NCBI GenBank assembly: GCA_964595695.1 | Contig: CAZQRE010000001.1 | Coordinates: 1-37,818 of the forward strand | DNA from: an uncultured Dehalococcoidales bacterium | GTDB lineage: Bacteria; Chloroflexota; Dehalococcoidia; Dehalococcoidales; DAOVUZ01 | Length of the DNA stretch: 37,818 bases | Direction: 5' to 3' | Shown here: positions 10,817 through 37,555 of the stretch, piece after piece | How positions within the stretch are numbered: position 1 is the stretch's first letter | How the letters are laid out: each line of letters starts with the position of its first letter | Made by a program: the position numbers and the translations under genes | The notes under the pieces: model-generated | The model's database searches: none | Told to the model about the DNA's origin: nothing | What the model saw: the letters and a program-made list of their open reading frames with translations, nothing else

Positions 10817-10830
10817 AGTTCCCTTCCTTC

Positions 10831-15160: not shown

Positions 15161-16156
15161 ATGATTGTTGATATTGTTTTCGGTTTCTTGGGTTCTGGCA
15201 AAACTACTCTTATCGCCAAGATTCTCAAGGAATGGGGACAGGATGAAAAAATTGTAGTGTTGGTAAATGAGTTCGGCGAGGTGGGTATAGATGGCGATCT
15301 GTTAGCCAGTCAGGACGCTCAAGTAGTAGAAATGCCCAGCGGCTGTATCTGTTGCACCCTTCAAACAAACTTTAGGTCTCAGTTGTTGGATATAAGCCAA
15401 ACCTTTAATCCGCAGAGGGTAATTATTGAGCCGACTGGGGTAGCTCAGATAACTCAGATTATGTACATCATACACGCCGAATTATTCAAGGATATCATCA
15501 AAGAGACTCATAACATCCTGATTACCGATGCTACCAATTTCATCAGTTTTTATAGACGCAACCGACATTTTGTTGAGTCTCAGGTAAGAAATGCCCATGT
15601 GGTTTTGTTAAATAAATGTGATAAAGTCAAAAAAATAGAGGCTGCGGTTACTAAAGATGCTATATCGGCGATCAATCCCAAGGTTCCTGTTCTAATGACC
15701 GAGTTTGGGGCAGTGGAGTGGGGTGAATACCAATCAGCCCTCTCCGCTGCTCCTTTCTTGTCCACGGATTTTGAAGTGGAAATGGCTTCTCCGATAGAGG
15801 AAGTAGAAGAAGAGGGACTTATCCACATCCACGAGGGTGAAGATGCGTTAGGCTATGAATCCTTTGGCTGCGTTTATGAGCTTTCTTTTGACCGGCTTGA
15901 ACTGGAAAAGCTGTTTCAAGAGTTGTTAAATTCTACCCTTTTGGGGGAGGAAATAGTCAGAGCCAAAGGAATATTCAAGGTCGATAACCAATGGGTGGTG
16001 GGACAACTTGCCTCAGGAGATGTTTCCTGGCAAGAAGTTAAAAGTGCCCAACAGAGTAAAATCTCAATAATCGGGAGAAACCTAAAAAAGGAACTGATTG
16101 GGGCCGCCGTCAACCGCTGTTTAGCCGGGCGTAGCGGTAAGAAGGTCATTTCCTAA
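15161..16156 (+). CDS. CobW/COG0523-family G3E GTPase (metallochaperone-like)
   Basis: Walker A motif GFLGSGKTTL, the CxCC motif (GCICC) and the NKCD guanine-specificity motif. Confidence 0.8.
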   Translation: MIVDIVFGFLGSGKTTLIAKILKEWGQDEKIVVLVNEFGEVGIDGDLLASQDAQVVEMPSGCICCTLQTNFRSQLLDISQTFNPQRVIIEPTGVAQITQIMYIIHAELFKDIIKETHNILITDATNFISFYRRNRHFVESQVRNAHVVLLNKCDKVKKIEAAVTKDAISAINPKVPVLMTEFGAVEWGEYQSALSAAPFLSTDFEVEMASPIEEVEEEGLIHIHEGEDALGYESFGCVYELSFDRLELEKLFQELLNSTLLGEEIVRAKGIFKVDNQWVVGQLASGDVSWQEVKSAQQSKISIIGRNLKKELIGAAVNRCLAGRSGKKVIS

Positions 16157-16365
16157 TCATGTTGCCACCCTGTGTTACCCAAAGTGGATAGGACGGACAA
16201 AACTGGCTCCAACGGATGTTTTGGGGACTGCCGGGAAAGTTCGAGCCAGGGCAGGAGTGTTTATGGTGATGATAAACACTCATTAGGATTGAGGTTCATC
16301 ACTTTTTAGAATTTATACCTGAACGACATAAATTTTTCAATCCATCAAGAAAAGGAGGTAAGAAA

Positions 16366-16878
16366 ATGACATTGTTAGCACCAATACTTATGGCAATTAG
16401 CCTTATGTGGATACCGATAGGATTACTTTTATTGGGCAAAGGTGAGGCTAAATCAACAGGTGTTCTTACCCTTATGGTGGGCACACTGGTAATAGTATCC
16501 TCGATCTTTATGGCAACCACTGAAGGGGGCTTTTTCGCTGCTGCCCTACTCTTCACATACGGGCTCTTTTACAACATCGTCGGTTACGTCCTATATACCG
16601 GACAGACAGATGTAAGGACCGCGGGCAATGCTAGTATTGTGGTAGGCTTAATAACCATTGCCTACATAATTATCTGTTTAGCCGGTCCCGAGGCCTTAAG
16701 AAGCGACTACCTGGCGTTGGGTTGCGCTGGATACTTGGTTCTCTATATCATGTGCTGGCTCTTCTTTTACGGCAAGTTCTCCGCCAAGACCTTAGGTTGG
16801 TCACTAATAATATGGACGTTTGTCGGTCTCTGGTGGCCTGCTTTCTCGCTACTGACTACGGGTGCACTGCCATTTTAG
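16366..16878 (+). CDS. small six-helix membrane protein, AmiS/UreI-family channel-like
   Basis: 170 aa and hydrophobic. KSTGVLTLMVGTLVI and the C-terminal W-rich helix resemble UreI as I recall it (KSTAVMNFFVGGLSI). Good ribosome-binding site AAAGGAGG. Confidence 0.5.
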   Translation: MTLLAPILMAISLMWIPIGLLLLGKGEAKSTGVLTLMVGTLVIVSSIFMATTEGGFFAAALLFTYGLFYNIVGYVLYTGQTDVRTAGNASIVVGLITIAYIIICLAGPEALRSDYLALGCAGYLVLYIMCWLFFYGKFSAKTLGWSLIIWTFVGLWWPAFSLLTTGALPF

Positions 16879-22473: not shown

Positions 22474-23130
22474 TTGATCCTTGCCCGTTGGCTGCGGTTT
22501 CGACTGTATCCAACGGGCAAGTGTTTTATTGGAGAGCACTTGAACACGATAGTCTTTTTTGATGGTCAAAACATCTATCGCAGTGCCAAGGACGCATGGC
22601 GGTCGACCGCTAGTGACACCTATGTTTACACATGGCCTAGCTATGATGTAGAGAAATTAGCTACAGCACTAGCTTCTCAAACTTCAGGGAGGACAATCAC
22701 ACAGATACGATTTTACACTGGTGTGCCTACTTCATACCAAAATTACCATTGGAATTGTTTTGGGGGGGAGAAGCTTAAGTATTTAGAAAGCCAAGGCATT
22801 GAAGTTTATAAAGGAAAAATCAATGCGCATAACCAAGAAAAGGGCGTTGATGTTAAAATTGCTATTGATATGATACGACTTACGTATGAGCGAAAATATG
22901 ATGTGGCGATAATTTTAAGCCAAGATAGGGATTTTGAACCAGCTATTAGTCTTGCAAAAAAGATAGCTAACGACCAAAAGCGACAACTCTTTTTTGAGTC
23001 ACACTTCATAATTGGGCCTAGTAGTGATTCGGGGAGGGGGATACCAGGGACAAAATGGATGCCGATTGACAAAGCCACTTATGACGTCTGCCTTGATGCC
23101 CAAGATTACCAAAAATCCACGACGCCCTGA
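22474..23130 (+). CDS. NYN-domain (LabA/DUF88-like) putative RNase
   Basis: IVFFDGQNIY, GVDVKIAIDM and ILSQDRDF motifs are typical of NYN domains. The probable true start is TTG 22540, after GGAGAG. Confidence 0.7.
   Translation: MILARWLRFRLYPTGKCFIGEHLNTIVFFDGQNIYRSAKDAWRSTASDTYVYTWPSYDVEKLATALASQTSGRTITQIRFYTGVPTSYQNYHWNCFGGEKLKYLESQGIEVYKGKINAHNQEKGVDVKIAIDMIRLTYERKYDVAIILSQDRDFEPAISLAKKIANDQKRQLFFESHFIIGPSSDSGRGIPGTKWMPIDKATYDVCLDAQDYQKSTTP
22481..22530 (+). promoter_or_regulatory. terminator-like leader hairpin (possible attenuator)
   Basis: Perfect 11 bp stem TTGCCCGTTGG / CCAACGGGCAA with an 18 nt loop, followed by GTGTTTTATT. It lies between the promoter and the probable start TTG 22540. 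Confidence 0.45.
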
Positions 23131-23146
23131 CCTCTACCTCCCCCAC

Positions 23147-23365
23147 CTAGCCTGAGCTGCCCTCTTTGCTATTTCTACCCGCCTTTCGGGTGTGAGTATT
23201 GCAAGCCCTAGCTCTACCACCCTTTAGACCACCAAGATGCCCCAATGCCTTAGCATCAAAGGTTTTAGTTGGTTTAGGTTCAATTTGTCCCGTAGCTTCT
23301 TGAACAACCCGAAATGCTGTGATACTGAAATCGTGTTCTCGTTTCTGTCTCATACCTTTAGCCAC
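23147..23365 (-). CDS. small basic protein, probably frameshifted near its 3' end
   Basis: After GGLKGGRA the annotated frame reads ...CNTHTRKAGRNSKEGSSG. The adjacent frame reads GLAILTPERRVEIAKRAAQARWGR, ending at TAG 23134-23136, which resembles a common C-terminal motif of small GGxxGGxARA proteins. Confidence 0.35.
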   Translation of the reverse strand: MAKGMRQKREHDFSITAFRVVQEATGQIEPKPTKTFDAKALGHLGGLKGGRARACNTHTRKAGRNSKEGSSG

Positions 23366-23374
23366 ATCATTGTA

Positions 23375-23791
23375 TTAAGGAGCTAGTATGGCTCCAAAGC
23401 TTGCTTGTTGTGGGTTCTCCCTAAGAAATGTCCATAGAAACTCCAATATTATACGAAGAAAGGCCTCCCAAGTTGTTTCCTCATATTTATGTGACCTTTT
23501 CCGACAACATAACGGTTTGGCTTCCTTCCATGCGATGGCGAGTTCGGGGTGTTTCTTTAGAAATACGGTTTCAAAATCCTCTATCTCTAGTCCAACCACC
23601 TCACCATTTTCAGGGTCAACTCTAATCCAAAACTCTCCATCCCAATCTACCGACGTTGCGGGGTGTGCTTTCTCAGGGCGTAGGAAAAAGGTATCCTCAT
23701 CTTCATGATATACAGGAATGAAATTCTTTATGTTACTCATAGTGTCGTAATCTATCTGAAGATTATCCAAACCGGTTATTTTTCTTCCCAT
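23375..23791 (-). CDS. hypothetical protein with a DUF2283-like core (possible antitoxin)
   Basis: WIRVDPENGEVVGLEIEDFE resembles the DUF2283 beta-core. It overlaps the upstream gene by 16 nt. Confidence 0.35.
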   Translation of the reverse strand: MGRKITGLDNLQIDYDTMSNIKNFIPVYHEDEDTFFLRPEKAHPATSVDWDGEFWIRVDPENGEVVGLEIEDFETVFLKKHPELAIAWKEAKPLCCRKRSHKYEETTWEAFLRIILEFLWTFLRENPQQASFGAILAP

Positions 23792-24120
23792 ATCAGAATA
23801 TCCCCCTTTTTCTTATTCTGACAAGCGAAAGCTGTTGAAATATAGCCCACTAAGCCCCTAAATATCCTTTTTCTGTATTTTATTGCTACCCTAAGGTATT
23901 GGGTATGAAATGGTTTGGGCAAAATAAACGGTCGGTAGATATTTTTCTGGTTGGGGTGCTTCGGGTCTTGGTAAACTTGGTATGGTTTTTCAATAGTTTC
24001 TTTAACATATGATTCACACCCTATCATTTCAGGATGTTCAAAAACTATATGATTTTCCCATGTATCCCTCGGACAAATAACAGTGATACCATCTTTGTCT
24101 AAGCATCGGAATACATCCAT
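23776..24120 (-). CDS. hypothetical small protein (possible toxin-like partner)
   Basis: 114 aa ORF whose W-x-x-H-I-x-x-x-HPEM segment is reminiscent of small nuclease-type toxins. The family was not identified. Confidence 0.3.
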   Translation of the reverse strand: MDVFRCLDKDGITVICPRDTWENHIVFEHPEMIGCESYVKETIEKPYQVYQDPKHPNQKNIYRPFILPKPFHTQYLRVAIKYRKRIFRGLVGYISTAFACQNKKKGDILIWEEK

Positions 24121-24296: not shown

Positions 24297-25127
24297 TTAG
24301 ATGTTGAGCCGTGCCCCATCCAGATAGATTAGGCTTCTACCGACACGGTGTATATTCCCATTGCCGGTAACTAACATAGCCACCCGCTCCAGCCCTACAC
24401 CCAGTCCGGCCCAGGATTCGCTGATGTTCCAGTTGCCATCCAGGGGATGGGGGCCGGTAGCGCCCGAAGCCACCTCCACCCCATTACAGACCACATCCAT
24501 GGTAAAGCCATAAACCTGAGAGGACTCTTTCACCAAATCATAGGAAAGACCGAATGTGCCCATGACCAGGTCTGCTATCTCAACTAACCGTTCTTGTGGC
24601 TTACCCAGGCAACCCAATTCCACCAAGTTTAGCATAGTGAACTCTTCCATGTGGTGGGAGCCTGTGGACTCCTTGCGCCAGCAGGAGCCTATCTCAAAAA
24701 GGCAGATTGGACGCGGCCACAGACGCTGCAAGTGTCCCAACAGAAAATAGAGGTTAGGCGCTAACATAGGGCGCAGGCAACGATTTTCATCAATCCAGAA
24801 AATCTGCTTCCACAGGGGGTCATCTTCGGTAATGTTCATTTTTTTGAGTAATCCCCGAGCCAAAAAGGCTGGGGTAGTCACCTCCACGAACCCAGCCTGC
24901 ACCAAGGCTTCGGCTACCTGCGCCGCTATTCTAATCTGGACAGGACGACGCAGACTGGTGCGGAGTCTGGTCAAGATATCCATGTTTCTTTCCGACAACT
25001 CCTTGGCCAGATGATTGAAGTAAGCGTTACGCTCCGACTCCGAGGCAAAGCTCAGTGCCAGTGCCTCAGGTTCCGCATCCAGCTCAAGGAGTCGCTGTTT
25101 TTGAGTACTTGAAAAGGTAACCTTCAT
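24297..25127 (-). CDS. pylSc: pyrrolysyl-tRNA synthetase, catalytic (C-terminal) subunit
   Basis: From ATG 25127 (MKVTFSSTQKQRLLEL) the sequence is collinear with Desulfitobacterium PylSc as I recall it. Shared segments: CLRPMLAPNLY, FEIGSCWRKES, EFTMLN, GPHPLD, GLGVGLER and SLIYLDGARLNI. Confidence 0.9.
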   Translation of the reverse strand: MKVTFSSTQKQRLLELDAEPEALALSFASESERNAYFNHLAKELSERNMDILTRLRTSLRRPVQIRIAAQVAEALVQAGFVEVTTPAFLARGLLKKMNITEDDPLWKQIFWIDENRCLRPMLAPNLYFLLGHLQRLWPRPICLFEIGSCWRKESTGSHHMEEFTMLNLVELGCLGKPQERLVEIADLVMGTFGLSYDLVKESSQVYGFTMDVVCNGVEVASGATGPHPLDGNWNISESWAGLGVGLERVAMLVTGNGNIHRVGRSLIYLDGARLNI

Positions 25128-25467
25128 GTCCGCCTTCCTTGACAAAGGAGGTCCGAGAGTATTTTTCCAGCTTCCACCCTGGCACCCGGCAACCCTGACA
25201 GGGCTTTTCGTACCACTTATTCCTGAGCCACCGTGCCAGGCGACCATTGTTGGAACGCCTAACACAGACCTTTTGGTTGCAGTGGGTAATTATGGTCATC
25301 ATGTTACCCCGGCATTTTACGGAACGGACACCATGGAGAATCCCCTTATGCGACGGCAAAAGCTTAATTCGATTTATGAGGTAATACAAGTCTTCGCCCT
25401 TCCTAAAGACCCTCTTCTTTTTCTGCTTTCCGCCAACCTCAGTGGTGACGGGACTTTGTGTTTCCAT
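25084..25467 (-). CDS. pylSn: pyrrolysyl-tRNA synthetase N-terminal tRNA-binding domain protein
   Basis: KGILHGVRSVKCRGNMMTIITHCNQKVCVRRSNNGRLARWLRNKWYEKPCQGCRV aligns with the archaeal PylRS N-domain ([55 protein letters not shown]). Confidence 0.85.
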   Translation of the reverse strand: METQSPVTTEVGGKQKKKRVFRKGEDLYYLINRIKLLPSHKGILHGVRSVKCRGNMMTIITHCNQKVCVRRSNNGRLARWLRNKWYEKPCQGCRVPGWKLEKYSRTSFVKEGGHEGYLFKYSKTATP

Positions 25468-25499: not shown

Positions 25500-25571
25500 T
25501 GGCGGAGAGTTCGGGAGTTTAACCCGACTACATGGATTTAGAGTCCACGTGGTCCTGCCGACCAACCCTCC
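25500..25571 (-). tRNA. pylT: tRNA-Pyl (anticodon CUA)
   Basis: Minus strand: GGAGGGT T GGTC GGCAG GACC A CGTGGA CUCUAAA UCCAUG UAG UCGGG UUAAACU CCCGA ACUCUCC G CCA. It shows the tRNA-Pyl hallmarks: one base between acceptor and D stems, a 5 nt D-loop, a 6 bp anticodon stem, a 3 nt variable loop and no TPsiC sequence. Confidence 0.9.
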
Positions 25572-25632
25572 ATAAAGGCTGAGAACACTTACTTTCCCCC
25601 GGACACTTAACCCATCGTGTCTCCTATCTTCG

Positions 25633-25666
25633 ATATCTCACCGAAGAGTCACTACATTGGCTCCAG
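25633..25666 (-). repeat. short relic copy of a pylB internal segment
   Basis: GTCACTACATTGGCTCCAG (25648-25666) is identical to 28748-28766 inside pylB. Flanking similarity is CGAAG(AG)TC versus CGAAGTC. Confidence 0.8.
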
Positions 25667-25698
25667 TAGTATGCAAGTTCCCCCCAGCCGGCTCGTCG

Positions 25699-26382
25699 TT
25701 ATTTCGGCCTTTGAATGGCTCTCAGCGCTCGGCGCAATATATCCAGCCAGGGTTCTACCGTTTCGGCTCTAAGGTGTTCGTAGTCCTTTGCCAACGATGC
25801 ATCTGCCACCGTCAGGTAGACCCTAGCCACTTCCGGGCTATCAAATCCCCCGCCTAGCTTATCCCCTAAAACCCTTTTTAACGAAGGGTAAAGCTTTTGG
25901 TACGGTTCCAGAAGTCCCATAATTTCGAAAATGTTACCCTCCATTTCCTCCAGGCGCGGAAAGGGTTCGCTCAAAAGCCTTTCCAAAACACGAAAATGCT
26001 CAGACAATGAACCCAGCCCACCCTGTAAGTAAGTACTGACTGCCTCCGAATCAACACTCATACAATCTATGACAGCCAGTTGGCAGTCGTCAACTGCATA
26101 AATGCTGTAACCTTCGTCACCAACTTTTAATTCTAGCTCATTTTTCACGAAATTGTGGAGAGCATCTCCCGTGACTCCGGAAGACATCTTCCCAATCATC
26201 CGTATCAACTCCCCGCTGGATTCCAGTGGAAGTTCAGCCGGAGCCTTTTCGTCAGTCTTCAAGCGGTATAGCTCGGCGTAGAAATGGCACCGCACGACTA
26301 AAGGCCGGGCCATGCTCCCGTAGGTACCAGGGTCCCAAACCTTTAACACCAGCGTGTCACCCGGCGAGCTTTCGCAGTTCAT
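25699..26382 (-). CDS. hypothetical protein, family not recognised
   Basis: 227 aa ORF with an ATGA overlap to the upstream VWA gene. No motif was recognised. Confidence 0.5.
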   Translation of the reverse strand: MNCESSPGDTLVLKVWDPGTYGSMARPLVVRCHFYAELYRLKTDEKAPAELPLESSGELIRMIGKMSSGVTGDALHNFVKNELELKVGDEGYSIYAVDDCQLAVIDCMSVDSEAVSTYLQGGLGSLSEHFRVLERLLSEPFPRLEEMEGNIFEIMGLLEPYQKLYPSLKRVLGDKLGGGFDSPEVARVYLTVADASLAKDYEHLRAETVEPWLDILRRALRAIQRPK

Positions 26383-27554
26383 CGTTCATACCCCTGTAAG
26401 CGGATGACCCTTCCGAATGGCGGCTCAAGGTAGGAATTCATAACCCAGATGACATCAAAGGGTTGATTCGAGTCCGGGTATTTCCCGTCTCCGTCCGTCA
26501 GGTAGACCAGCACCTCAGGCGGGTCATCATCTATCTTGCTGAAAACAGGACGGAAGTCGGTACCACCACCACCACTGAGGCACTTCAGGAAGGGCTCAAA
26601 ATCCGAATCATGCACCGCCATCATATCGGCATGAACGGCGGCATCGCAAGCTAAAAGCCTGGCCTGGAACGAGCTGAAGGACTGGAGGATGTTTCTCATC
26701 TCCGCCAAAAACTCGTCAAGCTGCTCATCACTCACGCTTCCCGAGGTGTCCACAGCCACCGCTATTTTTAACATTTCGGACTTAGAAGATGGATAGTATA
26801 CCCCATATTGAAGCAATCGCTTATCGGGTCTCATCCAATCGTAGTCATCGCTGGAGCGCTGCTTAATATACTGATGCAAAAGCTGATGCCAATTCAACCG
26901 AGGGTAAGCAAGTTCCCCAACTACCCGGGCAATGCCCAAGGGGAACATACCCTGATGTTTTGCCACCGCCGCCGCTTCAATCGCCCTCTGTTTCCACAAC
27001 TCCTCATCTTTACTAGCTTCAGCAGACTTATCCAATGCCTCCCTTGGTCGACTATCCGGTTGGTTGACCTTATCCCCACCCCCTTCTTCAGTGTTGTCCC
27101 ACACACCATGGTCATCCACGGTGTCTCCTTCACCACCAAGCAGGTTATCTTCGCTCAGTAGCTCATTGTAAATCTGCTCGGCGCTTTTGTTTTCAAACTC
27201 TTTTTTGTACAATATCCCCTCAGGCAAACGGAACTGGTCTTTCAAAATGGCGTTAATCGCATAGTCCGCCGCCATGTTCCACAGCCTTTTTGCTCGAGAG
27301 CCTCGTCTCCAAATGTGTCCTAGCGCCAGATGCATCACCTCGTGGGCAAAGACCCCCTCAATCTCCTCATCTTCCAGTCTATCTATCTTTTCCGGAAAAT
27401 AGTATAGGCGAATACCATCAGTCCCGGTTGGATATTCGCTCTCATGCTCCCTCAGCTCAAGATAGCTGGCGAGATAGCCAAAAAAGGGGTTCTTCAGCAG
27501 TAGCTGAACCCTGGCTCTAATTACCCTTCTCCTGACGCTCTTAGAATCACTCAT
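26379..27554 (-). CDS. VWA-domain protein with an N-terminal HExxH metallopeptidase-like domain (DUF2201-like)
   Basis: HEVMHLALGH motif in the N-terminal half and a MIDAS-like DTSGS (AVAVDTSGSV) in the C-terminal half. ATGA overlap with the AAA+ gene. Confidence 0.7.
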   Translation of the reverse strand: MSDSKSVRRRVIRARVQLLLKNPFFGYLASYLELREHESEYPTGTDGIRLYYFPEKIDRLEDEEIEGVFAHEVMHLALGHIWRRGSRAKRLWNMAADYAINAILKDQFRLPEGILYKKEFENKSAEQIYNELLSEDNLLGGEGDTVDDHGVWDNTEEGGGDKVNQPDSRPREALDKSAEASKDEELWKQRAIEAAAVAKHQGMFPLGIARVVGELAYPRLNWHQLLHQYIKQRSSDDYDWMRPDKRLLQYGVYYPSSKSEMLKIAVAVDTSGSVSDEQLDEFLAEMRNILQSFSSFQARLLACDAAVHADMMAVHDSDFEPFLKCLSGGGGTDFRPVFSKIDDDPPEVLVYLTDGDGKYPDSNQPFDVIWVMNSYLEPPFGRVIRLQGYER

Positions 27555-28555
27555 AGAATCAAATCCCGGTGCTTTTCGGCAAAATAAACAAATTCCTGTG
27601 TTTCTCTAACCGGTAACTCCGCTCTGATAGCATCCCTTACCAGCAGCACGGAAAATTCCTCAGGTAAGAGACAGGCGTATTCTATAACCCTGGCAGTTTT
27701 CTCCCTGTCCTCGCGGGCATAACAAACCAGGGCCGATACCAGAGAGTAGAGCAGGTCCGGACTCTGTGGAACCAGGTCCTCTCCGTTGAGAATCATCCTT
27801 GCATCCGGAAGCCGCTCTGTTGCCCGCAGGTAAGCTACGAATTCAGTGGCCGCACCCACGCCGATAGCACCGGCTACATCCGTTTTGCTATCAAGCCCTA
27901 TAGCCAAAATCTCGGAGACCCTCTCCCAACTTCGAGGCGTGGGAAAGGCGTGTTCCATCTTCACCGGGTCGAAGCGAAACAGTAGGTCAGGTTTAAAGCT
28001 CAAAAAACCTATTATCCTGGGGTCAATTTGATTTACATACGCCCACTTTTTCCAGTCATCAAGATTCGTTTCAACTTCCCAATGGATAAACCGATTCGCT
28101 AACGGGGCCGGCATCGGCACGGTGTAGGCCCTGTCGGTGGACTTATTTCCCGCCGCCACCACCATCCACCCATCTGGCAACACATACTCCCCAACTCTGC
28201 GGTCCAAAATAAGCTGATACGCAGCCGACTGCACTGAATGAGGCGCCAGGTTCAACTCGTCCAGGAACAAAATACCCTTTCCACTTTGCGGCAAGAAGCA
28301 GGGTGGCGACCACCTGACCGTTCCCCCATCAAACCTGGGCAGCCCCCTTAGGTCAACCGGGTCAAGCAAGGTCAACCGCAAATCCTCAAAATCTATTCCC
28401 TCCTCCTCACAGATTTGCTTGATGATGTCAGACTTACCTATCCCTGTGGAGCCCCATAAAAAGACCGGCGGAGGGTGTATTCCTGCCTCGAGGCAAAAAC
28501 TCACCATATGCCTGAGCACCTCTTTAGCTTCGTTAATGGTTTTGGTGGCGAGCAT
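27551..28555 (-). CDS. MoxR/AAA_5-type AAA+ ATPase
   Basis: Walker A motif GSTGIGKS and Walker B motif ILFLDELN; 334 aa. It starts 2 nt after the pylB stop. Confidence 0.8.
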   Translation of the reverse strand: MLATKTINEAKEVLRHMVSFCLEAGIHPPPVFLWGSTGIGKSDIIKQICEEEGIDFEDLRLTLLDPVDLRGLPRFDGGTVRWSPPCFLPQSGKGILFLDELNLAPHSVQSAAYQLILDRRVGEYVLPDGWMVVAAGNKSTDRAYTVPMPAPLANRFIHWEVETNLDDWKKWAYVNQIDPRIIGFLSFKPDLLFRFDPVKMEHAFPTPRSWERVSEILAIGLDSKTDVAGAIGVGAATEFVAYLRATERLPDARMILNGEDLVPQSPDLLYSLVSALVCYAREDREKTARVIEYACLLPEEFSVLLVRDAIRAELPVRETQEFVYFAEKHRDLIL

Positions 28556-28557
28556 CT

Positions 28558-29676
28558 TTATGACCTCTTCTTTTTACTCAGCCGCTTTTCCTTTTTAATC
28601 CACTGTTGGTACACTGATACCGGGGCTACCCTCAGACCCAGCCGTTCAATCACCGGGGTCACCACCGACACCGTCCGCAGCCCGTCTTCAATACCTAACT
28701 GAGACCTGGATACCCCCGCCAGTCCATACCGCGGTGGTATCATCGAAGTCACTACATTGGCTCCAGCATTCAATCGAGCCTCAAGACCCTGAACACCATC
28801 CACATCCAGCGAGGCTGGTATCAGCCGCTCGGGAAAGCAAATACGAAAGGTGGCAATAGTTCGTAATTCATTCAGTGAATCCGGTGCTGGCCAATTAGCC
28901 ATCGGGGTGCCACGCTGAGGTCTGAAGGTCATCGCCCGCACCTGGCTGGGGCAAAGGCTTTCTATGGCTTTTACTGCCAATGCTCCGTCAGCGGGGCTGT
29001 CTCCTACCCCTAGCAGCAGCCCCTCTTCAATAAGCAATCCGACCTGGCGGGCATTCACCTTAGCTGCCAGACGTCTATCAAAATCTTGCTCTATACGCAA
29101 GCGGGCAAAAAGACTTTCATTAAAGGTTTCCTGGTAACAGGCATACCAATCCACCCCGAGGCGGGCAATTTCAACCAGGGTTCCTGGTGTTAAAACGCCG
29201 GGGGAAACCATAACTGATAACGGGACAGCTTCGCGCACCTCATACACCATTTCCAGAAGCCTCCCCCCACCCCCCTCCAGGTAGTAAGGGTCTTCTCCCA
29301 TGGTCAAATCCAGCAGGTGAACCCCATCGGCGGCTAATGCCCGGGCGATATCGAGTATGACCTTTATATTTTTGCGGTAACGAGGCGAGGCGCTGTTGCC
29401 CTCCCGATAAAGACAAAAATTGCAGTGGTTTTGGCAGTAGGTGGATAGATAAACAAAACCGTAAAGGAAGACCTCCTCCCCGAAGACGCGCTCCCTGAGT
29501 GCCCGGGCGGTGGCAAAGAGGCTATCCAGGGGTTTACCCGGTGGTGTGGCTAAAAGCGAAGTCACCTCTACCTCATCCAGGGGCTGCCCGCACCAGGCCT
29601 TTTCTAAAATGGGTTCAAGAGTTTTCATGGTTTTGAGCACCTGCTCCAAACCTTGCCTCCGCCACTGGCTAGGCAA
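28558..29676 (-). CDS. pylB: radical SAM methylornithine synthase
   Basis: CxxxCxxC motif (CQNHCNFCLY), BioB-like size, and the pyl context. The start is ambiguous between TTG 29676 and ATG 29628. Confidence 0.8.
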   Translation of the reverse strand: MPSQWRRQGLEQVLKTMKTLEPILEKAWCGQPLDEVEVTSLLATPPGKPLDSLFATARALRERVFGEEVFLYGFVYLSTYCQNHCNFCLYREGNSASPRYRKNIKVILDIARALAADGVHLLDLTMGEDPYYLEGGGGRLLEMVYEVREAVPLSVMVSPGVLTPGTLVEIARLGVDWYACYQETFNESLFARLRIEQDFDRRLAAKVNARQVGLLIEEGLLLGVGDSPADGALAVKAIESLCPSQVRAMTFRPQRGTPMANWPAPDSLNELRTIATFRICFPERLIPASLDVDGVQGLEARLNAGANVVTSMIPPRYGLAGVSRSQLGIEDGLRTVSVVTPVIERLGLRVAPVSVYQQWIKKEKRLSKKKRS

Positions 29677-29777: not shown

Positions 29778-29817
29778 AACACATTCGCCCACCGCCCCAG
29801 AAGGGACGGTGGGCGAA
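29778..29817 (-). terminator. intrinsic terminator after mtmB
   Basis: Minus strand: TTCGCCCACCG, a 12 nt loop, CGGTGGGCGAA, then TGTGTTT. Confidence 0.7.
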
Positions 29818-29840: not shown

Positions 29841-31232
29841 TTATAGCTTAAACTTGAACCCGCACCCCTCCATGGTCTTTAAGGCTTTACCCATTACCTG
29901 GATATACTCATCCGAAGGCGACAGGGTAGCTACATTGTAGCACTCCTGGAAGGTCTTGCCCTTTGGTGCCGTCTTGAAGTTCTTCTCGTAGAGAGACACC
30001 AGCTTGTCCAGCATGGGGTTAACCTTTTCCAGCTCCAGCCCGGCGACTGCTCGGCTTGCATAAGCCATAAAGCGTGATTCCATGGCAGTGGTGTAGTCCA
30101 TGGCAACACCTTTTGCCGAGGCACAACCACTAATAATCTCACGCCCGCTGGCAGTATCCGTAACCGCCTGAGCCGCTGCCTCCAGCAAGCACATCTCAGT
30201 GCATGGGCCGGCTGAGGTATAGTACTGGTTACCCAAAAGTAGATGGGTATTGCGATCCAGAGCCCGACCACAGTAGCCGGCAACCATCAACACCTCTCTA
30301 GCTGTTGTGTTGCCCCAGCGTACATGAATCGGTCCGTCCAGATGCCAGTCAGCGCCCACCAATATGAAAGCTCCCAAACTGGTGGCTACATCAATGATAG
30401 TGGTCTCCTCGATCCCTCCTGCCCAGCCACCAAAGATGGGCATCTGCTCACTCATAATGATGGAACCGTCCAACTTGTAATGGGCGGTGAAGGTAAGGGC
30501 ATTAATGTCAATCTTGAGCTCATTAAGCTGACTTACCTCGTGGCTATCACTTGTCCTCATACCGCCCGGAAAATCAGCAGCTAAAACGCCAGCCGCCGTT
30601 AGCGAAGTTTCATTCCCCTACATCGCCATCCCGGGACGACCAGCCCGCATCTGTGCCATCCGGATTCCGTATGCTTCCTGTTTGACAGCAGCTATCTCAT
30701 ACGGGGAGCCAGGCTTGGGTTCGTGCCCGTTCCAGGTAGCCACAACACCGTCAACGATGGAATCTACCAAGGGCTCCCGGGCATACGACTCCATCATCGG
30801 GATAAAGATGTTCTCCGATACCGGAGCCCCGGTCGGACCACCCTGATTCAGCGGTTGGCGGGGGTCATCAAATTTCCGCATCTTTAGCTGCACCGAATCC
30901 TTACCCTCACCCAGCGTGAGGCAGTCAGGAGCCGCCGCTACCGCCATCATAACCTCGTCCTCGGTGTACTTACACACACGACAGGTATCCATGTTGAAAT
31001 AGCCCTGTGTTACGAGCATTTCAACACCGGCACGGAACAAACGGTCTATCAGGTCATTGTCAGTCGGGACTATCTTGCTCCTGTCAAATTGAAGCTTATA
31101 CTTCTCCTTCAATGCGTGTGCCGTTTTGAAGGTGAGTACTTCATCCCACTCTTTCTCTGTCATCCTAGGGCCGGTGCGCATTCGGTCGTAGGTCTCAAAC
31201 ACGCCAACCTTTTCCCTAAAAGTAGTAGCCAT
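29841..31232 (-). CDS. mtmB: monomethylamine:corrinoid methyltransferase with an in-frame UAG (pyrrolysine) codon at 30618-30620
   Basis: The track ORFs 30618-31232 and 29841-30560 are in one frame with no other stop between them. The junction reads AGRPGMAM-(UAG)-GNETSLTAAGVLAADFPGGMRTSDSHEVSQLNELKID. Methanosarcina MtmB reads AGRPGMGV-O-GPETSLSAQGNISADCTGGMTCTDSHEVSQLNELKID. The amber codon is codon 205. Confidence 0.9.
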
Positions 31233-31316: not shown

Positions 31317-31955
31317 TTATCCCATTAGTTTCCTGGCTACCGTCACCGCCTCGGCCCCATTCTCAGCCCAACCATCAGCGCCAATCTGTTTTATCCACTC
31401 CGGAGTCGTAGGTGCCCCGCCAAACATGCACTTGAATTTGTCGCGGATACCTCGCTCCTTAAGGGCGTTAACAATCTCACGCTGGGAAAACATGGTCGTG
31501 CTCATGAGAGCTGAGCCAGTAATCATGTCGACCTTCTCCGCGACGGCAACATCAACCACGTGCTCTATGGGAACATCACGACCCAGGTCCAGCGTCTCAA
31601 ATCCGCTGGCACCCAACAGGATTTTCACGATATTTTTACCAATATCATGGATATCCCCTTCTACGGTATGAACGATGACCTTGCCTTTGGATTTGTAGCC
31701 TCCCTTAACAAGGGGCTTCAGGATTTCCACCGCTTCGGTAAAGGCTTCAGCTGAAATAATAATCTGGGGAACAAAGACCTCCGCCTTATCAAACAAATCG
31801 CTGATGACATTCATACCCGCCCCCAAACCCTCGTTAATGCACTTAAGGGGGTCCACATTCTCAGACGCAGCCTGTTTGGCGGCAGCCTTAGCCCCATCTA
31901 CATCCTGTTCAACAACAGCCTTCTTTAACTTTTCCAGAATTTCCTTCTCGGGCAT
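31317..31955 (-). CDS. mtmC: monomethylamine corrinoid protein
   Basis: 212 aa with the DxHxxG motif (GDIHDIGKN), immediately upstream of mtmB. Confidence 0.85.
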   Translation of the reverse strand: MPEKEILEKLKKAVVEQDVDGAKAAAKQAASENVDPLKCINEGLGAGMNVISDLFDKAEVFVPQIIISAEAFTEAVEILKPLVKGGYKSKGKVIVHTVEGDIHDIGKNIVKILLGASGFETLDLGRDVPIEHVVDVAVAEKVDMITGSALMSTTMFSQREIVNALKERGIRDKFKCMFGGAPTTPEWIKQIGADGWAENGAEAVTVARKLMG

Positions 31956-32122: not shown

Positions 32123-33307
32123 TTAATACGGTTCCGCCCTGCCGGGCTCCACAGCGAAGACCTCGGAATCGTCCACAGCCAGCGCCGGTCGCGTGCGGCA
32201 CAAAAGTCCAGTGACACCACCGAGTACCAGACCAATCGCCATAACGCCGACCAAAGCCCAGACCTGCACAATGCCGGCGAAGAAGACAGCAGCCACGAGA
32301 GCGCCAAAAATACCACCGACCCCGTGCAGGTTGTGCACCCCCATCATATCTTTCACACCAAAGATTTTTTCGGTAACAGGCTGCAAGTATTTAAATGATA
32401 AGACTGATATGACACCTGCCGCCACACCAATGGCAAGCCCTGTCCATGGTCCGACCAGGTCAGCCGTTGAACCAATGGCAACCAGTCCGCACAACATAGC
32501 ATAGGTGTAAATCAGGGGGTCAACCTTTTTGTCTATGACCCACAGCAATACATAACTAATGAATGCCGAACCAAACCCAGCCATGTAGGTGGTTATGAGT
32601 ACACGAATCGTATCTTCCGGTGCCACCAAGACTGTAATAAAGGATGGCCACAATACAAATAGCAGCATCGCCGCCAGCCAGACGAAGCTCACACTGTGGG
32701 TGGTGGTGTCCATCGGCGCCGTTAGAGCTGACTTACTCCGAATGGTTAGAATCATCCCCCAGCCAAAGTAAGCTGCCAACACGTGTACCAGAATGGAGCC
32801 CCCAACGTCCATTACGCCTGCCAGGTAGAAAAACATATACCACTCCACGAGCAGAAAAGCGAAGGGGAAGATCAACGCCATGATAACATAGTGACCATGC
32901 TTTACCTGCCCCAATGGCACCCCGATGGCTATCACCAGCGTTATCGACATAACGATAGCAACTGCCAGAAAGTCAATGTTCCACATTGCATACCCTGGCG
33001 CACTCTCAAACAGTCCTGCGAAAACAACAGTTTTGAGAAAAGCATACCACGGTAAGCTAAGCGTCAGCGTGACCATAGTTGCCAGGCAGACTATCCACTC
33101 CATCCTCTTAACAAACAGCATCAAAAAGGCAACTAGCATGTACATAAAGAAGATATCTAGTGTCCTTTTGTACTGCCACATGTCAAACATAGTTTCGTCT
33201 GTAATTTCCTGAGCTAGAGTACTAACTGGCTGGACTATCAGCGCTATCACTGTTGCCGCTACTAACAATCCAATCCATAATACTTTCCGTGATTTCAGCA
33301 ATTTCAT
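32123..33307 (-). CDS. Rh-type (Rh50-like) ammonium/methylammonium transporter
   Basis: 394 aa polytopic protein. DVGGSILVHVLAAYFGWG and GVHNLHGVGGIFGAL match Rh-family signatures as I recall them (D-GGS-x-HxFGAYFGL; GVHNLHG-PG). Confidence 0.7.
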   Translation of the reverse strand: MKLLKSRKVLWIGLLVAATVIALIVQPVSTLAQEITDETMFDMWQYKRTLDIFFMYMLVAFLMLFVKRMEWIVCLATMVTLTLSLPWYAFLKTVVFAGLFESAPGYAMWNIDFLAVAIVMSITLVIAIGVPLGQVKHGHYVIMALIFPFAFLLVEWYMFFYLAGVMDVGGSILVHVLAAYFGWGMILTIRSKSALTAPMDTTTHSVSFVWLAAMLLFVLWPSFITVLVAPEDTIRVLITTYMAGFGSAFISYVLLWVIDKKVDPLIYTYAMLCGLVAIGSTADLVGPWTGLAIGVAAGVISVLSFKYLQPVTEKIFGVKDMMGVHNLHGVGGIFGALVAAVFFAGIVQVWALVGVMAIGLVLGGVTGLLCRTRPALAVDDSEVFAVEPGRAEPY

Positions 33308-33458
33308 ATCACCTCCGTCTAATATCTATAGATTTTTATTCCGACGATTCAGCTAATTATATAAATTTCATAATCACCCCCTCCCTTGTGGATAAATTTC
33401 GAGGAGTTTTCAAGGAGTTATCAAATTTATAAATAAATATAAAACAACTTAACATCAT

Positions 33459-33487
33459 AAAATAAACCGAAAACTAAACTTTGTCAA
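33459..33487 (-). promoter_or_regulatory. candidate promoter P1 upstream of the Rh-mtmCB genes
   Basis: Minus strand reads TTGACA (33487-33482), a 17 nt spacer, then TATTTT (33464-33459). Confidence 0.4.
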
Positions 33488-33576
33488 GTAACCCGTAATT
33501 TATGTTCAAAAAATTCATATCAGCTCTCTCTTGCCCATAGATTCCAACGAGTTATCAAATTTATAGGTAACTAAAA

Positions 33577-33605
33577 ATTTTAAAACAAACCAACCATTTT
33601 GTCAA
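33577..33605 (-). promoter_or_regulatory. candidate promoter P2 upstream of the Rh-mtmCB genes
   Basis: Minus strand reads TTGACA (33605-33600), a 17 nt spacer, then TAAAAT (33582-33577). Confidence 0.45.
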
Positions 33606-33828
33606 GTAGGAGAGGGCTTTTTCCAGATAACTCCAGCCCATTTAGTCCACAGGCATTTTCTGTCCCACATCACCACCTGAAGGCGACTATGATGGTTTTG
33701 CCGGTGACTCCGTTGCCGCCGGCAATGGATATTATCGTCTTATCCTCTAACCATCCTTGCCCCGCAGTTAAAGCAAAGACAATTGTTGTTAAACAGCCCC
33801 TTTTATTGCTATAATATTTTTGGTAAAT

Positions 33829-33904
33829 GGGGCTGTAGCTTAGCTGGGAGAGCGCCTCCCTTGCACGGAGGAGGTCGGGGGTTCGAGTCCCCCCAGCTCC
33901 ACCA
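33829..33904 (+). tRNA. tRNA-Ala (UGC), CCA encoded
   Basis: GGGGCTG acceptor stem with the G3:U70 identity pair. Anticodon arm CCTCC CTTGCAC GGAGG and T-arm TCGGGGGTTCGAGTCCCCC. TATAAT at 33810-33815 lies upstream. Confidence 0.9.
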
Positions 33905-34258: not shown

Positions 34259-35383
34259 CTAGCTGCTCAACAGGATTTGCAAGAAATCCTTAATGCTTGG
34301 GGAAATACGACTGAGAAAGAATATATAATCTCGATAATGGCTCAAGAGTTGGGTATAGGGCCTGCGGAATACCAGCTCTATTGCCTGTGGGTTAATAGTT
34401 ACTCCGGGCAATATGTAGTCAAATAGTATGTGTTCCGAAAAGAGAGGCATAAGTACCGCTTCTCTAGGATGTTTTAAGGCTCGCTCAATAAGATCAAGCA
34501 ATGAGTCAGTATATGGCGGAGGAGGTATATTATAAAAATTCCCAAGCGGTAACCCTTGTTGTTTTCCGTAGACTGAGTGTGCATATTCAAAAGAGGATCT
34601 TACGAGTGAAATAAACCGTTCGTACGGAATTCTGTCGGATACCAAACGTTGTTTTAATATCTCAGCACGCTCATTCTGATCTAGATTATTTACTTCACTA
34701 CAGATGCGCAAAACTCCTATAGTAAATAGGCTAATGAGGGTGCTCTTCAACCATTGTAGCCCTCTAGGACTTAATCCTGGTAGAGTGCTTATCGCAGCGA
34801 TACTCTCGTATTGCGCTATTACTCTCTTCACCGCTGAGCAGCTAGGCAGAAACCAGAAATCTGAATGAATCAGCTGCATTGCCCGGCTTATTTGTTGGTT
34901 TTTTGTTGATCTTTGGAGTTCACTTGTGGCACCCAAATATTCAGTAGCCGAAGAACCTCTGATAGGTGTTGCTTCGATATTGTCTTGCTCCATTCTATCG
35001 AGCACGCTGAAATCTATGAAATGGACACCCTCTGCCAATCCATAGAACTTAATATGCTTCTTTGTGTTAGGCCTTACTAAGTAGATTCTATCAGCATGGA
35101 TGCGCCTGGCTAGCGTTTGTAACCATAATACTCTATTTACGGGATGTGACCTACCTGATTTGCAGTCATATATGACTCGTATGGAGGTAAAGTCTTGCGA
35201 AAAAAGGTAACCAAGCACGTCAATGTCGGGTGTTGAGGCTCCACTAGCTTGATAGTGGCCAAGAATAAAGATGTCCCGTACAGCAAAATAACCTTGGTTG
35301 AAAAGCAGCCTTTGAACCCGTGCCTCTAACTGGATCCCTGTTGATGAAGTGGCCTTATCAATCGTCATCTTAGAATTCCTCAC
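34259..35383 (-). CDS. PD-(D/E)xK (Mrr/restriction-endonuclease-like) N-terminal domain protein with an uncharacterised helical C-terminal region
   Basis: TPDIDVLGY ... IRVIYDCKSG fits the D...(D/E)xK nuclease pattern. 374 aa; overlaps the upstream decayed gene by 14 nt. Confidence 0.45.
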   Translation of the reverse strand: MRNSKMTIDKATSSTGIQLEARVQRLLFNQGYFAVRDIFILGHYQASGASTPDIDVLGYLFSQDFTSIRVIYDCKSGRSHPVNRVLWLQTLARRIHADRIYLVRPNTKKHIKFYGLAEGVHFIDFSVLDRMEQDNIEATPIRGSSATEYLGATSELQRSTKNQQISRAMQLIHSDFWFLPSCSAVKRVIAQYESIAAISTLPGLSPRGLQWLKSTLISLFTIGVLRICSEVNNLDQNERAEILKQRLVSDRIPYERFISLVRSSFEYAHSVYGKQQGLPLGNFYNIPPPPYTDSLLDLIERALKHPREAVLMPLFSEHILFDYILPGVTINPQAIELVFRRPYTQLLSHYRDYIFFLSRISPSIKDFLQILLSS

Positions 35384-37207: not shown

Positions 37208-37348
37208 TTATGCCTTTCCTATTCTAAACATCTTAGTGCCACATGTTGGGCACACACCTTGAGTTGCTGGCCTCCCGTTCTTCATAGTTATAGATTTGGC
37301 ATCCTTCATTTCTTTCTTGGCTCGGCATTTCATACAGTATGCTTGCAT
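37208..37348 (-). CDS. small zinc-ribbon protein (DUF5679-like)
   Basis: From ATG 37348, after AAAGGAGGTAAGCAA, it reads MQAYCMKCRAKKEMKDAKSITMKNGRPATQGVCPTCGTKMFRIGKA, with a CxxC...CxxC pattern. The longer track ORF starting at 37438 lacks a ribosome-binding site. Confidence 0.7.
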   Translation of the reverse strand: MQAYCMKCRAKKEMKDAKSITMKNGRPATQGVCPTCGTKMFRIGKA

Positions 37349-37555
37349 TTGCTTACCTCCTTTTGTGGTTGAAGCGTAAACTAATCTCTGCGTGAATGTC
37401 AATAGCTTCTTACCTTTAAAGTCCAAACCTGCAATCACACAATCTGGCTAATTGTGACATCAAAGTATTTGGAAAGCCTGAAACACTTCTAGACTATGAG
37501 GTGGCACACATTGGCAAAATGAGCGCATTTGTATAGGCAGGCAACCCCACAATAA

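What the first reader, a model, noticed from the sequence alone, without database searches (positions are those of the whole stretch)
25699..28555. MoxR AAA+ / VWA-HExxH / unknown three-gene set inside the pyl operon between pylB and pylT
- Three genes sit between pylB and tRNA-Pyl. The AAA+ gene starts 2 nt after the pylB stop, and the other two junctions are ATGA overlaps, so the four genes appear translationally coupled.
- Canonical pyl clusters, as I know them, contain only pylT, pylS, pylB, pylC and pylD.
- MoxR-VWA pairs are known cofactor-insertion or remodelling chaperones (CobS/CobT, NorQ/NorD, CbbQ/CbbO, CoxD/CoxE).
- This set could therefore be an accessory factor for Pyl biosynthesis, or for maturation of corrinoid or methyltransferase proteins. 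Alternatively it is just an inserted cassette.
- The third gene (227 aa) matched no family I recognise.
Basis: partly seen in the sequence, partly recalled or inferred. Interest (0 to 1): 0.75.

Follow-up and report, generated by a model that had tools for sequence, protein, structure and literature searches.

The report
Virus-type chaperone genes inserted in pyrrolysine operon
Three extra genes between pylB and the pyrrolysine tRNA are real and kept by selection, but they are a one-off insertion of a phage/plasmid-type ATPase plus protease-VWA pair in one narrow Dehalococcoidales lineage, not a general part of the pyrrolysine machinery.

Summary
On the minus strand the order is pylB, an AAA+ gene (27551-28555), a zincin-VWA gene (26379-27554), a 227-aa orphan (25699-26382), then pylT, with a 2-nt gap and two ATGA overlaps.

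The Pyl-accessory reading is not supported as a general feature.
- Only 2 of 80 species-level pylB loci carry the set, and both are close Dehalococcoidales relatives.
- A sister locus (L095, PylB 76% identical) has pylB running straight into pylT, which defines a clean 2.95-kb indel (window 25625-28576).
- A probable relic of a pylB fragment lies at the distal end of the insert.

The AAA+/VWA pair matches two phage families end to end (E 1e-92 and 8e-89). It occurs in 654 phage and 146 plasmid records. Outside the clade, its nearest relatives (35-45% identity) sit in virus-like archaeal contigs.

The 227-aa protein matches no family or fold. Its only remote relatives lie next to a marker gene of those same virus-like elements.

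The set is not junk. dN/dS is 0.11-0.14 (AAA+), 0.15-0.20 (VWA) and 0.39-0.61 (orphan), and GC matches the flanks.

Best reading: a domesticated mobilome chaperone-protease module, co-expressed with pylB, client unknown.

The parts
27551..28555 (-). MoxR-like (AAA_5 / midasin-type) AAA+ ATPase, 334 aa
   Evidence: Walker A and Walker B motifs are read from the sequence. phrog_1297 matches full length at E 1.5e-92. AAA_5 scores 22.5 bits. Midasin AAA E 7.5e-10 and 2r44 E 0.019. It is 42-45% identical to the AAA gene next to DUF2201 in virus-like contigs L012-L014. dN/dS is 0.11-0.14.
26379..27554 (-). Zincin metallopeptidase (HExxH) fused to a VWA/MIDAS domain, DUF2201 family, 391 aa
   Evidence: PF13203 E 3e-41 and PF09967 E 1.2e-23. 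phrog_1314 matches full length at E 8.3e-89. H71/E72/H75/H80 and the MIDAS residues D269-S273, T332 and D354 are conserved in 44 homologues. The AF2 model (pLDDT 81) has a C-terminal half that matches VWA/MIDAS folds. dN/dS is 0.15-0.20.
25699..26382 (-). Orphan 227-aa protein: N-terminal beta-sheet domain plus C-terminal helical bundle
   Evidence: No family hit. The family has only 30 protein clusters, all at least 58% identical. A profile search of 1.84 billion representatives finds only 2 remote relatives. The AF2 model has pLDDT 79.6 and pTM 0.77, with no Foldseek match in PDB or BFVD. dN/dS is 0.39-0.61.
25625..28576 (-). The inserted segment as defined against the empty site in L095 (2,952 nt here, 40 nt there). 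It includes the last 19 nt of the present pylB ORF
   Evidence: blastn gives L095 7258-8361 = window 29680-28577 (81%) and L095 8402-9726 = window 25624-24297 (84%). The PylB C-termini diverge right after ...EKRL.
25647..25666 (-). 20-nt copy of the pylB codons for AGANVVT, lying between the 227-aa gene and pylT; a probable relic of a duplicated pylB 3' piece
   Evidence: It is a perfect direct repeat of 28747-28766. Diverged copies sit at the same place in L007, L009, L010 and L015, while the empty-site locus L095 has a single copy.
28558..29640 (-). pylB (methylornithine synthase); its stop lies 2 nt before the AAA+ start
   Evidence: TIGR03910 E 1.2e-125. The called gene is 360 aa.
25500..25571 (-). 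pylT, tRNA-Pyl (CUA)
   Evidence: ARAGORN. Rfam's tRNA model does not reach threshold here.
24297..25467 (-). pylSn (25084-25467) and pylSc (24297-25127), a split PylRS immediately after pylT
   Evidence: TIGR03912 E 7.7e-28 and TIGR02367 E 4.3e-84.

Best explanation
The three genes are a mobilome-type module that was inserted once, as about 2.95 kb, exactly at the pylB/pylT junction. This happened in the ancestor of a shallow Dehalococcoidales lineage, and the module has been kept there since.

Composition:
- Two of the genes are the widespread phage/plasmid pair of a MoxR-like AAA+ ATPase and a zincin-peptidase-VWA protein (DUF2201).
- The third is a fast-evolving lineage-restricted protein. 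Its only remote relatives lie in the same kind of virus-like element.

Expression (inferred): the set is now the distal part of the pylB transcription and translation unit. The SD for the AAA+ gene lies in the new pylB tail, the downstream junctions are ATGA overlaps, and no terminator is predicted.

Mechanism (inferred from the families, not shown):
- The VWA MIDAS site holds a client protein.
- The AAA+ ring remodels the client using ATP.
- The fused HExxH domain cleaves it.
- The 227-aa protein acts as adaptor, regulator or client.

The set is not a component of the pyrrolysine machinery in general. Its client in this lineage is unknown.
For: Shown:
- Junctions and motifs.
- Both proteins match phage families end to end: phrog_1297 at E 1.5e-92 and phrog_1314 at E 8.3e-89.
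- DUF2201 homologues occur in 654 phage records. AAA+ homologues occur in 146 plasmid records.
- Outside the clade, identity drops from 84-91% straight to 35-43%. The nearest contexts examined (L012-L014) carry PolB, NrdD, PolD, methyltransferases and runs of small unannotated same-strand ORFs, and no pyl genes.
- Only 2 of 80 GTDB-species pylB loci carry the set, by both tblastn and profile search.
- The empty site in L095 gives sharp breakpoints.
- A pylB-derived relic lies distal to the insert.
- dS within the clade is 0.13-0.4. dS to L095 is 0.5-1.1.
- There is purifying selection, all ORFs are intact, and the 2-nt and ATGA junctions are conserved in every clade locus.
- GC is 0.48-0.53, equal to the flanks.
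- The remote relative P0274 of the orphan lies next to a gene 39-43% identical to genes in L013 and L014.

From the literature:
- Iyer et al. 2021 (PMC7824862) describe this MoxR + metallopeptidase-vWA pair in jumbo phages and propose a chaperone/processing role.
Against: - The conserved position, the coupling to pylB and a dN/dS for the AAA+ gene lower than for the pyl genes themselves are also what a recruited operon-specific factor would show.
- The locus lies in a large corrinoid-methyltransferase island.
- The virus-like nature of L012-L014 is inferred from gene content. No capsid or terminase gene was seen, and PHROGs hits there are sparse.
- No donor element with all three genes adjacent was found.
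- The cassette-bearing clade is shallow, so conserved synteny alone says little.
- No expression data are available.
Confidence: 0.7

Rival explanations
1. Lineage-specific exaptation. After insertion the module was recruited as a maturation or quality-control factor for a product of the same operon. Candidates are the Fe-S/SAM enzyme PylB, the Pyl-containing MtmB, or the MtmB-MtmC complex. This would be analogous to CbbQO, NorQD or CoxDE.
For: - Translational coupling to pylB is conserved in all clade loci.
- The AAA+ and VWA genes are as constrained as, or more constrained than, pylB, pylC and pylD.
- The third gene's family is seen inside the pyl cluster in 5 of the 6 distinct lineages with context.
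- The surrounding window is a corrinoid-methyltransferase island.
Against: - The set is absent from the sister locus with the same gene order and from 78 of 80 other pyl loci.
- The island already encodes the canonical activators: two RACo/RamA-like proteins and CobW.
- The peptidase-VWA fusion is unlike CbbO, NorD or CoxE, and no NCBIfam hit to CbbQ, NorQ or CoxD was obtained.
- One family member (L104) is stand-alone, away from pyl genes.
Confidence: 0.18
2. A domesticated viral module working in virus-host conflict, for example superinfection exclusion or interference with virion assembly of related viruses. Its place in the pyl operon would be accidental.
For: - The nearest relatives of all three genes are in phages, plasmids or virus-like contigs.
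- The third gene evolves fast, with dN/dS 0.39-0.61, as conflict genes often do.
- A second, unrelated mobile-type insert containing an NYN gene (with hits to the PADLOC models HEC-09 and NYN) sits in the same cluster.
Against: - None of the three genes has a significant hit to any PADLOC defence model; the only hit is the AAA+ protein to DolB at E 0.0085, with no matched stretch.
- No nuclease, toxin or sensor domain is present.
- dN/dS of the third gene is still below 1.
- Nothing links the pair to defence experimentally.
Confidence: 0.1
3. A non-functional passenger: a decaying remnant of an integrated element.
For: The set is restricted to one shallow clade, and the third gene is relatively relaxed.
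Against: - All three ORFs are intact in every lineage seen. The apparent truncations in L009 are scaffold N-gaps.
- The catalytic and MIDAS motifs are intact.
- dN/dS is 0.11-0.20 for the AAA+ and VWA genes at dS 0.24-0.40.
- GC is fully ameliorated.
Confidence: 0.02

Closest known systems
Phage MoxR AAA+ / metallopeptidase-vWA pair (PHROGs phrog_1297 + phrog_1314; Pfam DUF2201_N + DUF2201), described for group 2.2 jumbo phages by Iyer et al. 2021 (PMC7824862)
   Same: - Both proteins align end to end with the phage families.
- The domain order is the same: zincin then VWA.
- The AAA+ gene lies upstream of the VWA gene in the same orientation.
   Different: - Here the pair is in a cellular operon with no virion or replication genes nearby.
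- The two genes overlap directly, whereas in the two phages inspected a few small genes separate them.
- An orphan third gene is coupled to them.
- The function of the phage pair is itself only a proposal.
Cellular MoxR-VWA maturation systems (CbbQ-CbbO, NorQ-NorD, CoxD-CoxE, RavA-ViaA) and ATV p618/p892
   Same: - The general logic is shared: an AAA+ of the MoxR/AAA_5 kind plus a partner with a MIDAS-bearing VWA domain, encoded side by side next to a possible client.
- NorD appears among the VWA fold matches (E 4.7e-3).
   Different: - No sequence-family membership: there are no NCBIfam or Pfam hits to those subfamilies.
- The partner carries an N-terminal HExxH peptidase that those systems lack.
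- No recurrent association with one client across lineages.
Canonical pyl cassette pylTSBCD (Longstaff et al. 2007, as cited in PMC5424206)
   Same: The set is physically embedded between pylB and pylT and is probably co-transcribed.
   Different: It is absent from 78 of 80 species-level pyl loci and from the sister locus L095. The genes have no relatives in characterised Pyl organisms' clusters.
Midasin/Rea1 (AAA_5 ring plus MIDAS domain)
   Same: - It is the best solved-structure sequence match for the AAA+ protein (E 7.5e-10).
- The MDN1 MIDAS domain is among the best fold matches of the VWA half.
   Different: Midasin is a single giant eukaryotic polypeptide with six AAA modules and no peptidase. 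The resemblance is at domain level only.

Membership tests
MoxR-like / AAA_5 AAA+ ATPases | P-loop Walker A and Walker B (hhhhDE) motifs | tested here: met
   GSTGIGKS at residues 35-42 and ILFLDELN, read from the translation.
MoxR-like / AAA_5 AAA+ ATPases | Profile match to AAA_5 or AAA_3 above the curated threshold | tested here: inconclusive
   AAA_5 scores 22.5 bits against a cut-off of 22. AAA_3 scores 20.6 against 27. Sequence matches to midasin AAA modules (E 7.5e-10) and MoxR-like 2r44 (E 0.019). Homologues in plasmids are annotated 'MoxR family ATPase'.
MoxR-like / AAA_5 AAA+ ATPases | Adjacent gene for a VWA/MIDAS partner | tested here: met
   The VWA gene overlaps the AAA+ stop by ATGA.
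MoxR-like / AAA_5 AAA+ ATPases | Hexameric ring with ATPase and remodelling activity | not testable with these tools
   Needs biochemistry.
DUF2201 zincin-VWA proteins (PF13203 + PF09967; phrog_1314) | Both domains above the Pfam gathering score, in N-to-C order | tested here: met
   142.2 bits (cut-off 23.2) and 84 bits (cut-off 26.4), covering residues 9-256 and 264-386. phrog_1314 E 8.3e-89.
DUF2201 zincin-VWA proteins (PF13203 + PF09967; phrog_1314) | HExxH zinc site and a complete MIDAS (DxSxS...T...D) | tested here: met
   H71, E72, H75 and H80, plus D269-T-S-G-S273, T332 and D354, are invariant or nearly invariant in 44 homologues.
DUF2201 zincin-VWA proteins (PF13203 + PF09967; phrog_1314) | VWA fold of the C-terminal half | tested here: met
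   The AF2 model has pLDDT 81. Foldseek probability is 1.00 to the BatB, MDN1-MIDAS and CLCA1 VWA domains.
Pyrrolysine gene cassette (pylTSBCD) accessory component | Recurrent presence at pyl loci of independent lineages | tested here: not met
   Present in 2 of 80 GTDB-species pylB loci, both close relatives with PylB 88-91% identical. 65 loci have pylB directly followed by pylC. Absent in the sister locus L095 and in L016 and L096.
Pyrrolysine gene cassette (pylTSBCD) accessory component | Requirement for Pyl synthesis or UAG decoding | not testable with these tools
   Needs genetics or heterologous expression.
Cofactor-insertion MoxR-VWA systems (CbbQO, NorQD, CoxDE, CobST) | Sequence membership of the named subfamilies | tested here: not met
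   No NCBIfam or Pfam hit to CbbQ, NorQ, CoxD or CobS/T models at E <= 0.01.
Known anti-phage defence systems (PADLOC) | Match to a defence-system protein model | tested here: not met
   The only hit is insignificant: DolB at E 0.0085 with no matched stretch.
Integrated prophage or mobile element still in place | Integrase, transposase or virion genes, att-type repeats, deviant composition | tested here: not met
   No such genes in the window. GC equals the flanks. The only flanking repeat is the pylB-derived 20-mer.

The most novel reading that the evidence does not exclude
A virus-derived AAA+/protease-VWA machine, together with an orphan adaptor, has been domesticated into a genetic-code-expansion operon. 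It now matures or quality-controls a Pyl-system protein (PylB or the UAG-encoded MtmB) in this Dehalococcoidales lineage. That would be the first dedicated protein-remodelling factor linked to pyrrolysine.
Probability: 0.15. Interest if true: 0.7.

Novelty: new member of a known kind. Interest (0 to 1): 0.35.

Why it matters
- Pyl biology: the result removes a tempting false lead. The canonical five-gene cassette is not extended by a chaperone.
- Mobilome biology: it provides a dated, breakpoint-resolved case of the very common but functionally untested phage MoxR / peptidase-VWA pair becoming fixed in a cellular operon under strong purifying selection. In a fixed cellular setting with a short list of candidate clients, the pair's biochemical role might be easier to find than in a phage.
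- The orphan: the 227-aa protein has no family and no fold match, and its only remote relatives are in virus-like elements. It is a small open question.

Tried and rejected
- Third gene of the virus-like loci: the gene after DUF2201 in L012 (290 aa) and L014 (368 aa) was tested as a homologue of the 227-aa protein. blastp and an HMM of the family found nothing.
- Fold searches: the 227-aa model has no match in PDB (best E 0.8, TM < 0.2) or BFVD (best E 0.15).
- IMG/VR scans: scans with the 227-aa family plus remote relatives, with the remote relatives alone, and with the AAA+ protein gave no confirmed hit. The metagenome scan gave only two contigs of 1-1.5 kb without context.
- Apparent decay in L009: the truncated pylB and half-length VWA are caused by 100-N scaffold gaps.
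- Weak AAA profile hits near five other pyl loci: E 5e-6 to 8e-3, in 480-600-aa ORFs about 5 kb away. I took these to be unrelated AAA+ proteins, because no DUF2201 partner is present.
- Promoter and terminator scan: counts are at the level of shuffled controls. Only the hairpin between mtmB and pylB stands out.
- P0060 (Methanonatronarchaeum): its context could not be looked up. Whether any archaeal homologue lies near pyl genes therefore remains untested beyond L012-L014.
- Literature: no paper links MoxR, VWA or DUF2201 to pyl clusters.
Full report
**1. What is there**

All relevant genes are on the minus strand. Reading in the direction of transcription, the order is:
- an Amt-family transporter (32123-33307)
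- mtmC (31317-31955)
- mtmB, interrupted by an in-frame TAG at 30618-30620 (29841-31232)
- pylB (28558-29640/29676)
- a 334-aa AAA+ protein (27551-28555)
- a 391-aa DUF2201_N + DUF2201 protein (26379-27554)
- a 227-aa protein with no family (25699-26382)
- tRNA-Pyl (25500-25571)
- pylSn and pylSc (24297-25467)
- a block of two small ORFs and an opposite-strand NYN gene (22474-24120)
- pylC, pylD, a RACo/RamA-like activator and a CdhD-like Fe-S protein

The AAA+ gene's Shine-Dalgarno-like AGAGG lies inside the last codons of pylB.

The rest of the window is a corrinoid-methyltransferase island. It holds CobS, CobU and CobA, three MtaA/URO-D-type genes, MtrH, a second RACo, MtaB/MtaC and CobW. 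It has no integrase, transposase or virion genes.

**2. What the proteins are**

AAA+ protein:
- It has canonical Walker A and B motifs.
- Its Pfam AAA_5 match is marginal.
- Its best solved-structure matches are midasin AAA modules and a MoxR-like protein.

Second protein:
- It is a clear DUF2201 family member.
- It has an HExxH...H site and a complete MIDAS motif. Both are conserved across 44 homologues.
- The C-terminal half of its AF2 model matches VWA/MIDAS domains.

The pair:
- Both proteins match phage protein families over their full length, at E 1.5e-92 and 8.3e-89.
- DUF2201 homologues are found in 654 phage records, including jumbo phages, Thermus phage phiFa and the roseophage CRP-7.
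- In the two phages inspected, an AAA+/MoxR gene lies a few genes upstream, in the early/replication region.
- AAA+ homologues annotated 'MoxR family ATPase' are in 146 plasmid records.
- Iyer et al. 2021 (PMC7824862) described this MoxR + metallopeptidase-vWA pair in jumbo phages. They proposed a chaperone/processing role by analogy with the ATV tail-development proteins. No experiment is cited for the peptidase-bearing pair.

**3. Does the set recur at pyl loci?**

No, except in close relatives.
- I took 80 pylB loci, one per GTDB species, with up to 10 kb on each side. I scanned them with tblastn and with profiles of the AAA+, DUF2201 and 227-aa families.
- Only L015 and L017 carry the set. 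Both are Dehalococcoidales MAGs with PylB 88-91% identical to the window.
- In 65 loci pylC follows pylB directly. In 11 another gene follows. 2 loci are uninformative.
- Other Dehalococcoidia/Chloroflexota pyl loci (L018, L020, L042, L052; PylB about 51-52% identical) are canonical.

Inside the clade, five distinct lineages keep the same order and the same 2-nt and ATGA junctions: the window plus L007/L008, L009, L010/L011 and L015.

**4. Empty site and breakpoints**

Locus L095 has PylB 76% identical in amino acids, and its DNA is 81-84% identical.
- It has the same mtmC-mtmB(UAG)-pylB-pylT-pylSn-pylSc order, but pylB runs straight into pylT.
- blastn gives two collinear blocks. They are separated by 40 nt in L095 and by 2,952 nt in the window (25625-28576).
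- PylB is shared up to ...EKRL. It then ends after six new codons (SKKKRS) inside the inserted DNA. In L095 the ORF continues for about 50 codons into pylT.

More distant relatives of this PylB type (L016, L096; 66% identical) have an MtaA-like gene after pylB and no cassette. Parsimony therefore favours one gain.

Timing: dS is 0.13-0.4 within the cassette clade and 0.5-1.1 to L095.

A perfect 20-nt direct repeat (25647-25666 = 28747-28766) reproduces the pylB codons for AGANVVT, just distal to the 227-aa gene.
- Diverged copies occupy the same place in L007, L009, L010 and L015. L095 has only the pylB copy.
- About 5e-6 such perfect repeats are expected by chance in 3.4 kb (my estimate).
- I read it as the relic of a pylB 3' piece duplicated when the segment was inserted. 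How that happened is not explained.

**5. Where the genes came from**

- Outside the clade, DUF2201 identity falls from 84-91% directly to 35-43%.
- The nearest contexts I could read are L012/L013, from Hadarchaeum MAGs, and L014, an 82-kb metagenome contig. They show AAA+ then DUF2201 amid PolB, NrdD, PolD subunits, DNA methyltransferases and strings of small unannotated same-strand ORFs, with no pyl genes.
- They look like viruses or other mobile elements. I did not see capsid or terminase genes, and PHROGs hits there are sparse.

The 227-aa family:
- It comprises only 30 protein clusters, all at least 58% identical.
- A profile search of 1.84 billion representatives adds just two remote relatives, P0273 and P0274, at E 6e-5 and 1e-4. 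They are alignable over the full length at 25-30% identity.
- P0274 sits directly after a gene that is 43% and 39% identical (E 1e-71 and 1e-64) to genes of L013 and L014.
- So all three cassette genes have their nearest outside relatives in one kind of virus-like element. A donor with the three genes side by side was not found.
- The most divergent family member (L104, 58% identical) is stand-alone in a related genome, but it keeps about 45 nt of the same 3' flank. It is probably a secondary copy.

**6. Is it functional?**

Yes.
- All ORFs are intact in every lineage. The L009 'truncations' are N-gaps.
- The motifs are conserved.
- GC (0.48-0.53) equals the flanks. By contrast the 22.2-24.3 kb block has GC 0.35-0.46 and is missing from L007, L010 and L015.
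- dN/dS values:

| Gene | dN/dS |
|---|---|
| AAA+ | 0.11-0.14 |
| VWA | 0.15-0.20 |
| 227-aa gene | 0.39-0.61 |
| pylB, pylC, pylD, pylSc | 0.10-0.24 |

**7. How it most likely works**

Shown:
- A once-inserted, selection-maintained module that is not general to Pyl.
- It has an intact ATPase, zinc-peptidase and MIDAS sites.
- It is positioned to be translated from the pylB message.

Inferred from family knowledge:
- The VWA MIDAS site binds a client.
- The AAA+ ring remodels it.
- The fused peptidase cleaves it.
- The orphan protein is an adaptor, regulator or client.

The client is unknown. The rival readings are a lineage-specific exaptation for PylB or MtmB maturation (about 0.15-0.2), a conflict-related role (about 0.1), and a dead passenger (contradicted by the selection data).

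**8. Verdict**

- The pair is a new cellular member of a known, functionally untested phage/plasmid family.
- The 227-aa protein is a genuine orphan.
- Interest is moderate to low. The case is tidy and datable, and it corrects a tempting over-reading, but nothing shown here changes how pyrrolysine is understood.

Noticed in passing
window 22474-24120 (ORFs 23776-24120 -, 23375-23791 -, 22474-23130 +): A second, unrelated interruption of the pyl cluster lies between pylSc and pylC. It has two overlapping small ORFs (114 aa; 138 aa with a weak DUF2283 hit) and an opposite-strand NYN-domain gene that hits the PADLOC models HEC-09 and NYN. GC is 0.35-0.46 against about 0.52 in the flanks. The block is absent from L007, L010 and L015, so it is a recent insertion in the window's own lineage.
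   Followed up: partly
L095 8455-8526 versus pylB ORF 7310-8488: In the cassette-free sister locus the pylB reading frame has no stop until inside pylT, at the anticodon loop. pylB and the tRNA gene therefore overlap by 34 nt. Where PylB really ends there is unclear.
   Followed up: partly
window 25647-25666 and 28747-28766: This is a perfect 20-nt direct repeat of the pylB AGANVVT codons. The mechanism that duplicated a pylB piece at the distal end of the insert is unexplained. So is the reason the intergenic copy is so well kept across the clade.
   Followed up: partly
window 29784-29817 (- strand): A strong hairpin (15 pairs, 11 of them G-C) lies between the mtmB stop and the pylB start. 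It could be a terminator or attenuator separating mtmCB from pylB and the cassette. Its tail is not T-rich.
   Followed up: no
L104 315-1001 and 1275-1474; window 37208-37438: The most divergent member of the 227-aa family (58% identical) is stand-alone, with no VWA gene upstream and no pylT downstream. It lies next to a DUF5679 zinc-ribbon gene that is 83% identical in DNA to window 37208-37406.
   Followed up: partly
window 25084-25467 and 24297-25127: pylSn lies directly upstream of pylSc and overlaps it by about 44 nt, right after pylT. In most of the 80 bacterial loci surveyed pylSn follows pylD. A few others (for example L058, L074, L084, L087, L091) also have the pylSn-pylSc arrangement.
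   Followed up: no
window 25572-25624: The 50 nt just upstream of pylT are conserved between the cassette clade and L095. They contain a short inverted repeat (G)GACAC...GTGTC(C). This may be a processing or promoter element for pylT.
   Followed up: no
window 134-16878: The window upstream of the pyl region is a dense corrinoid and methylotrophy island. It holds CobS, a CobC-like phosphatase, CobU, CobA/BtuR, three URO-D/MtaA-like methyltransferases, MtrH, a full-length RACo, two extra corrinoid proteins, MtaB and CobW. TAG is still used as the stop in 6 of the 33 ORFs checked.
   Followed up: partly
one search hit list (P0041, P0044, P0056, P0060, P0071, P0091): The named sources of the closest non-clade DUF2201 proteins are Hadarchaeum/Hadesarchaea, MSBL1, Methanonatronarchaeum and Hermodarchaeota. 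From my own recollection, not checked here, several of these lineages are reported to use Pyl. The two contexts read (L012-L014) have no pyl genes. The others could not be looked up.
   Followed up: partly
window 34259-35383 (-) and 33000-33900: A 374-aa ORF with no Pfam match lies beside a low-GC stretch (0.36-0.39) and tRNA-Ala (33829-33904). Neither was examined.
   Followed up: no
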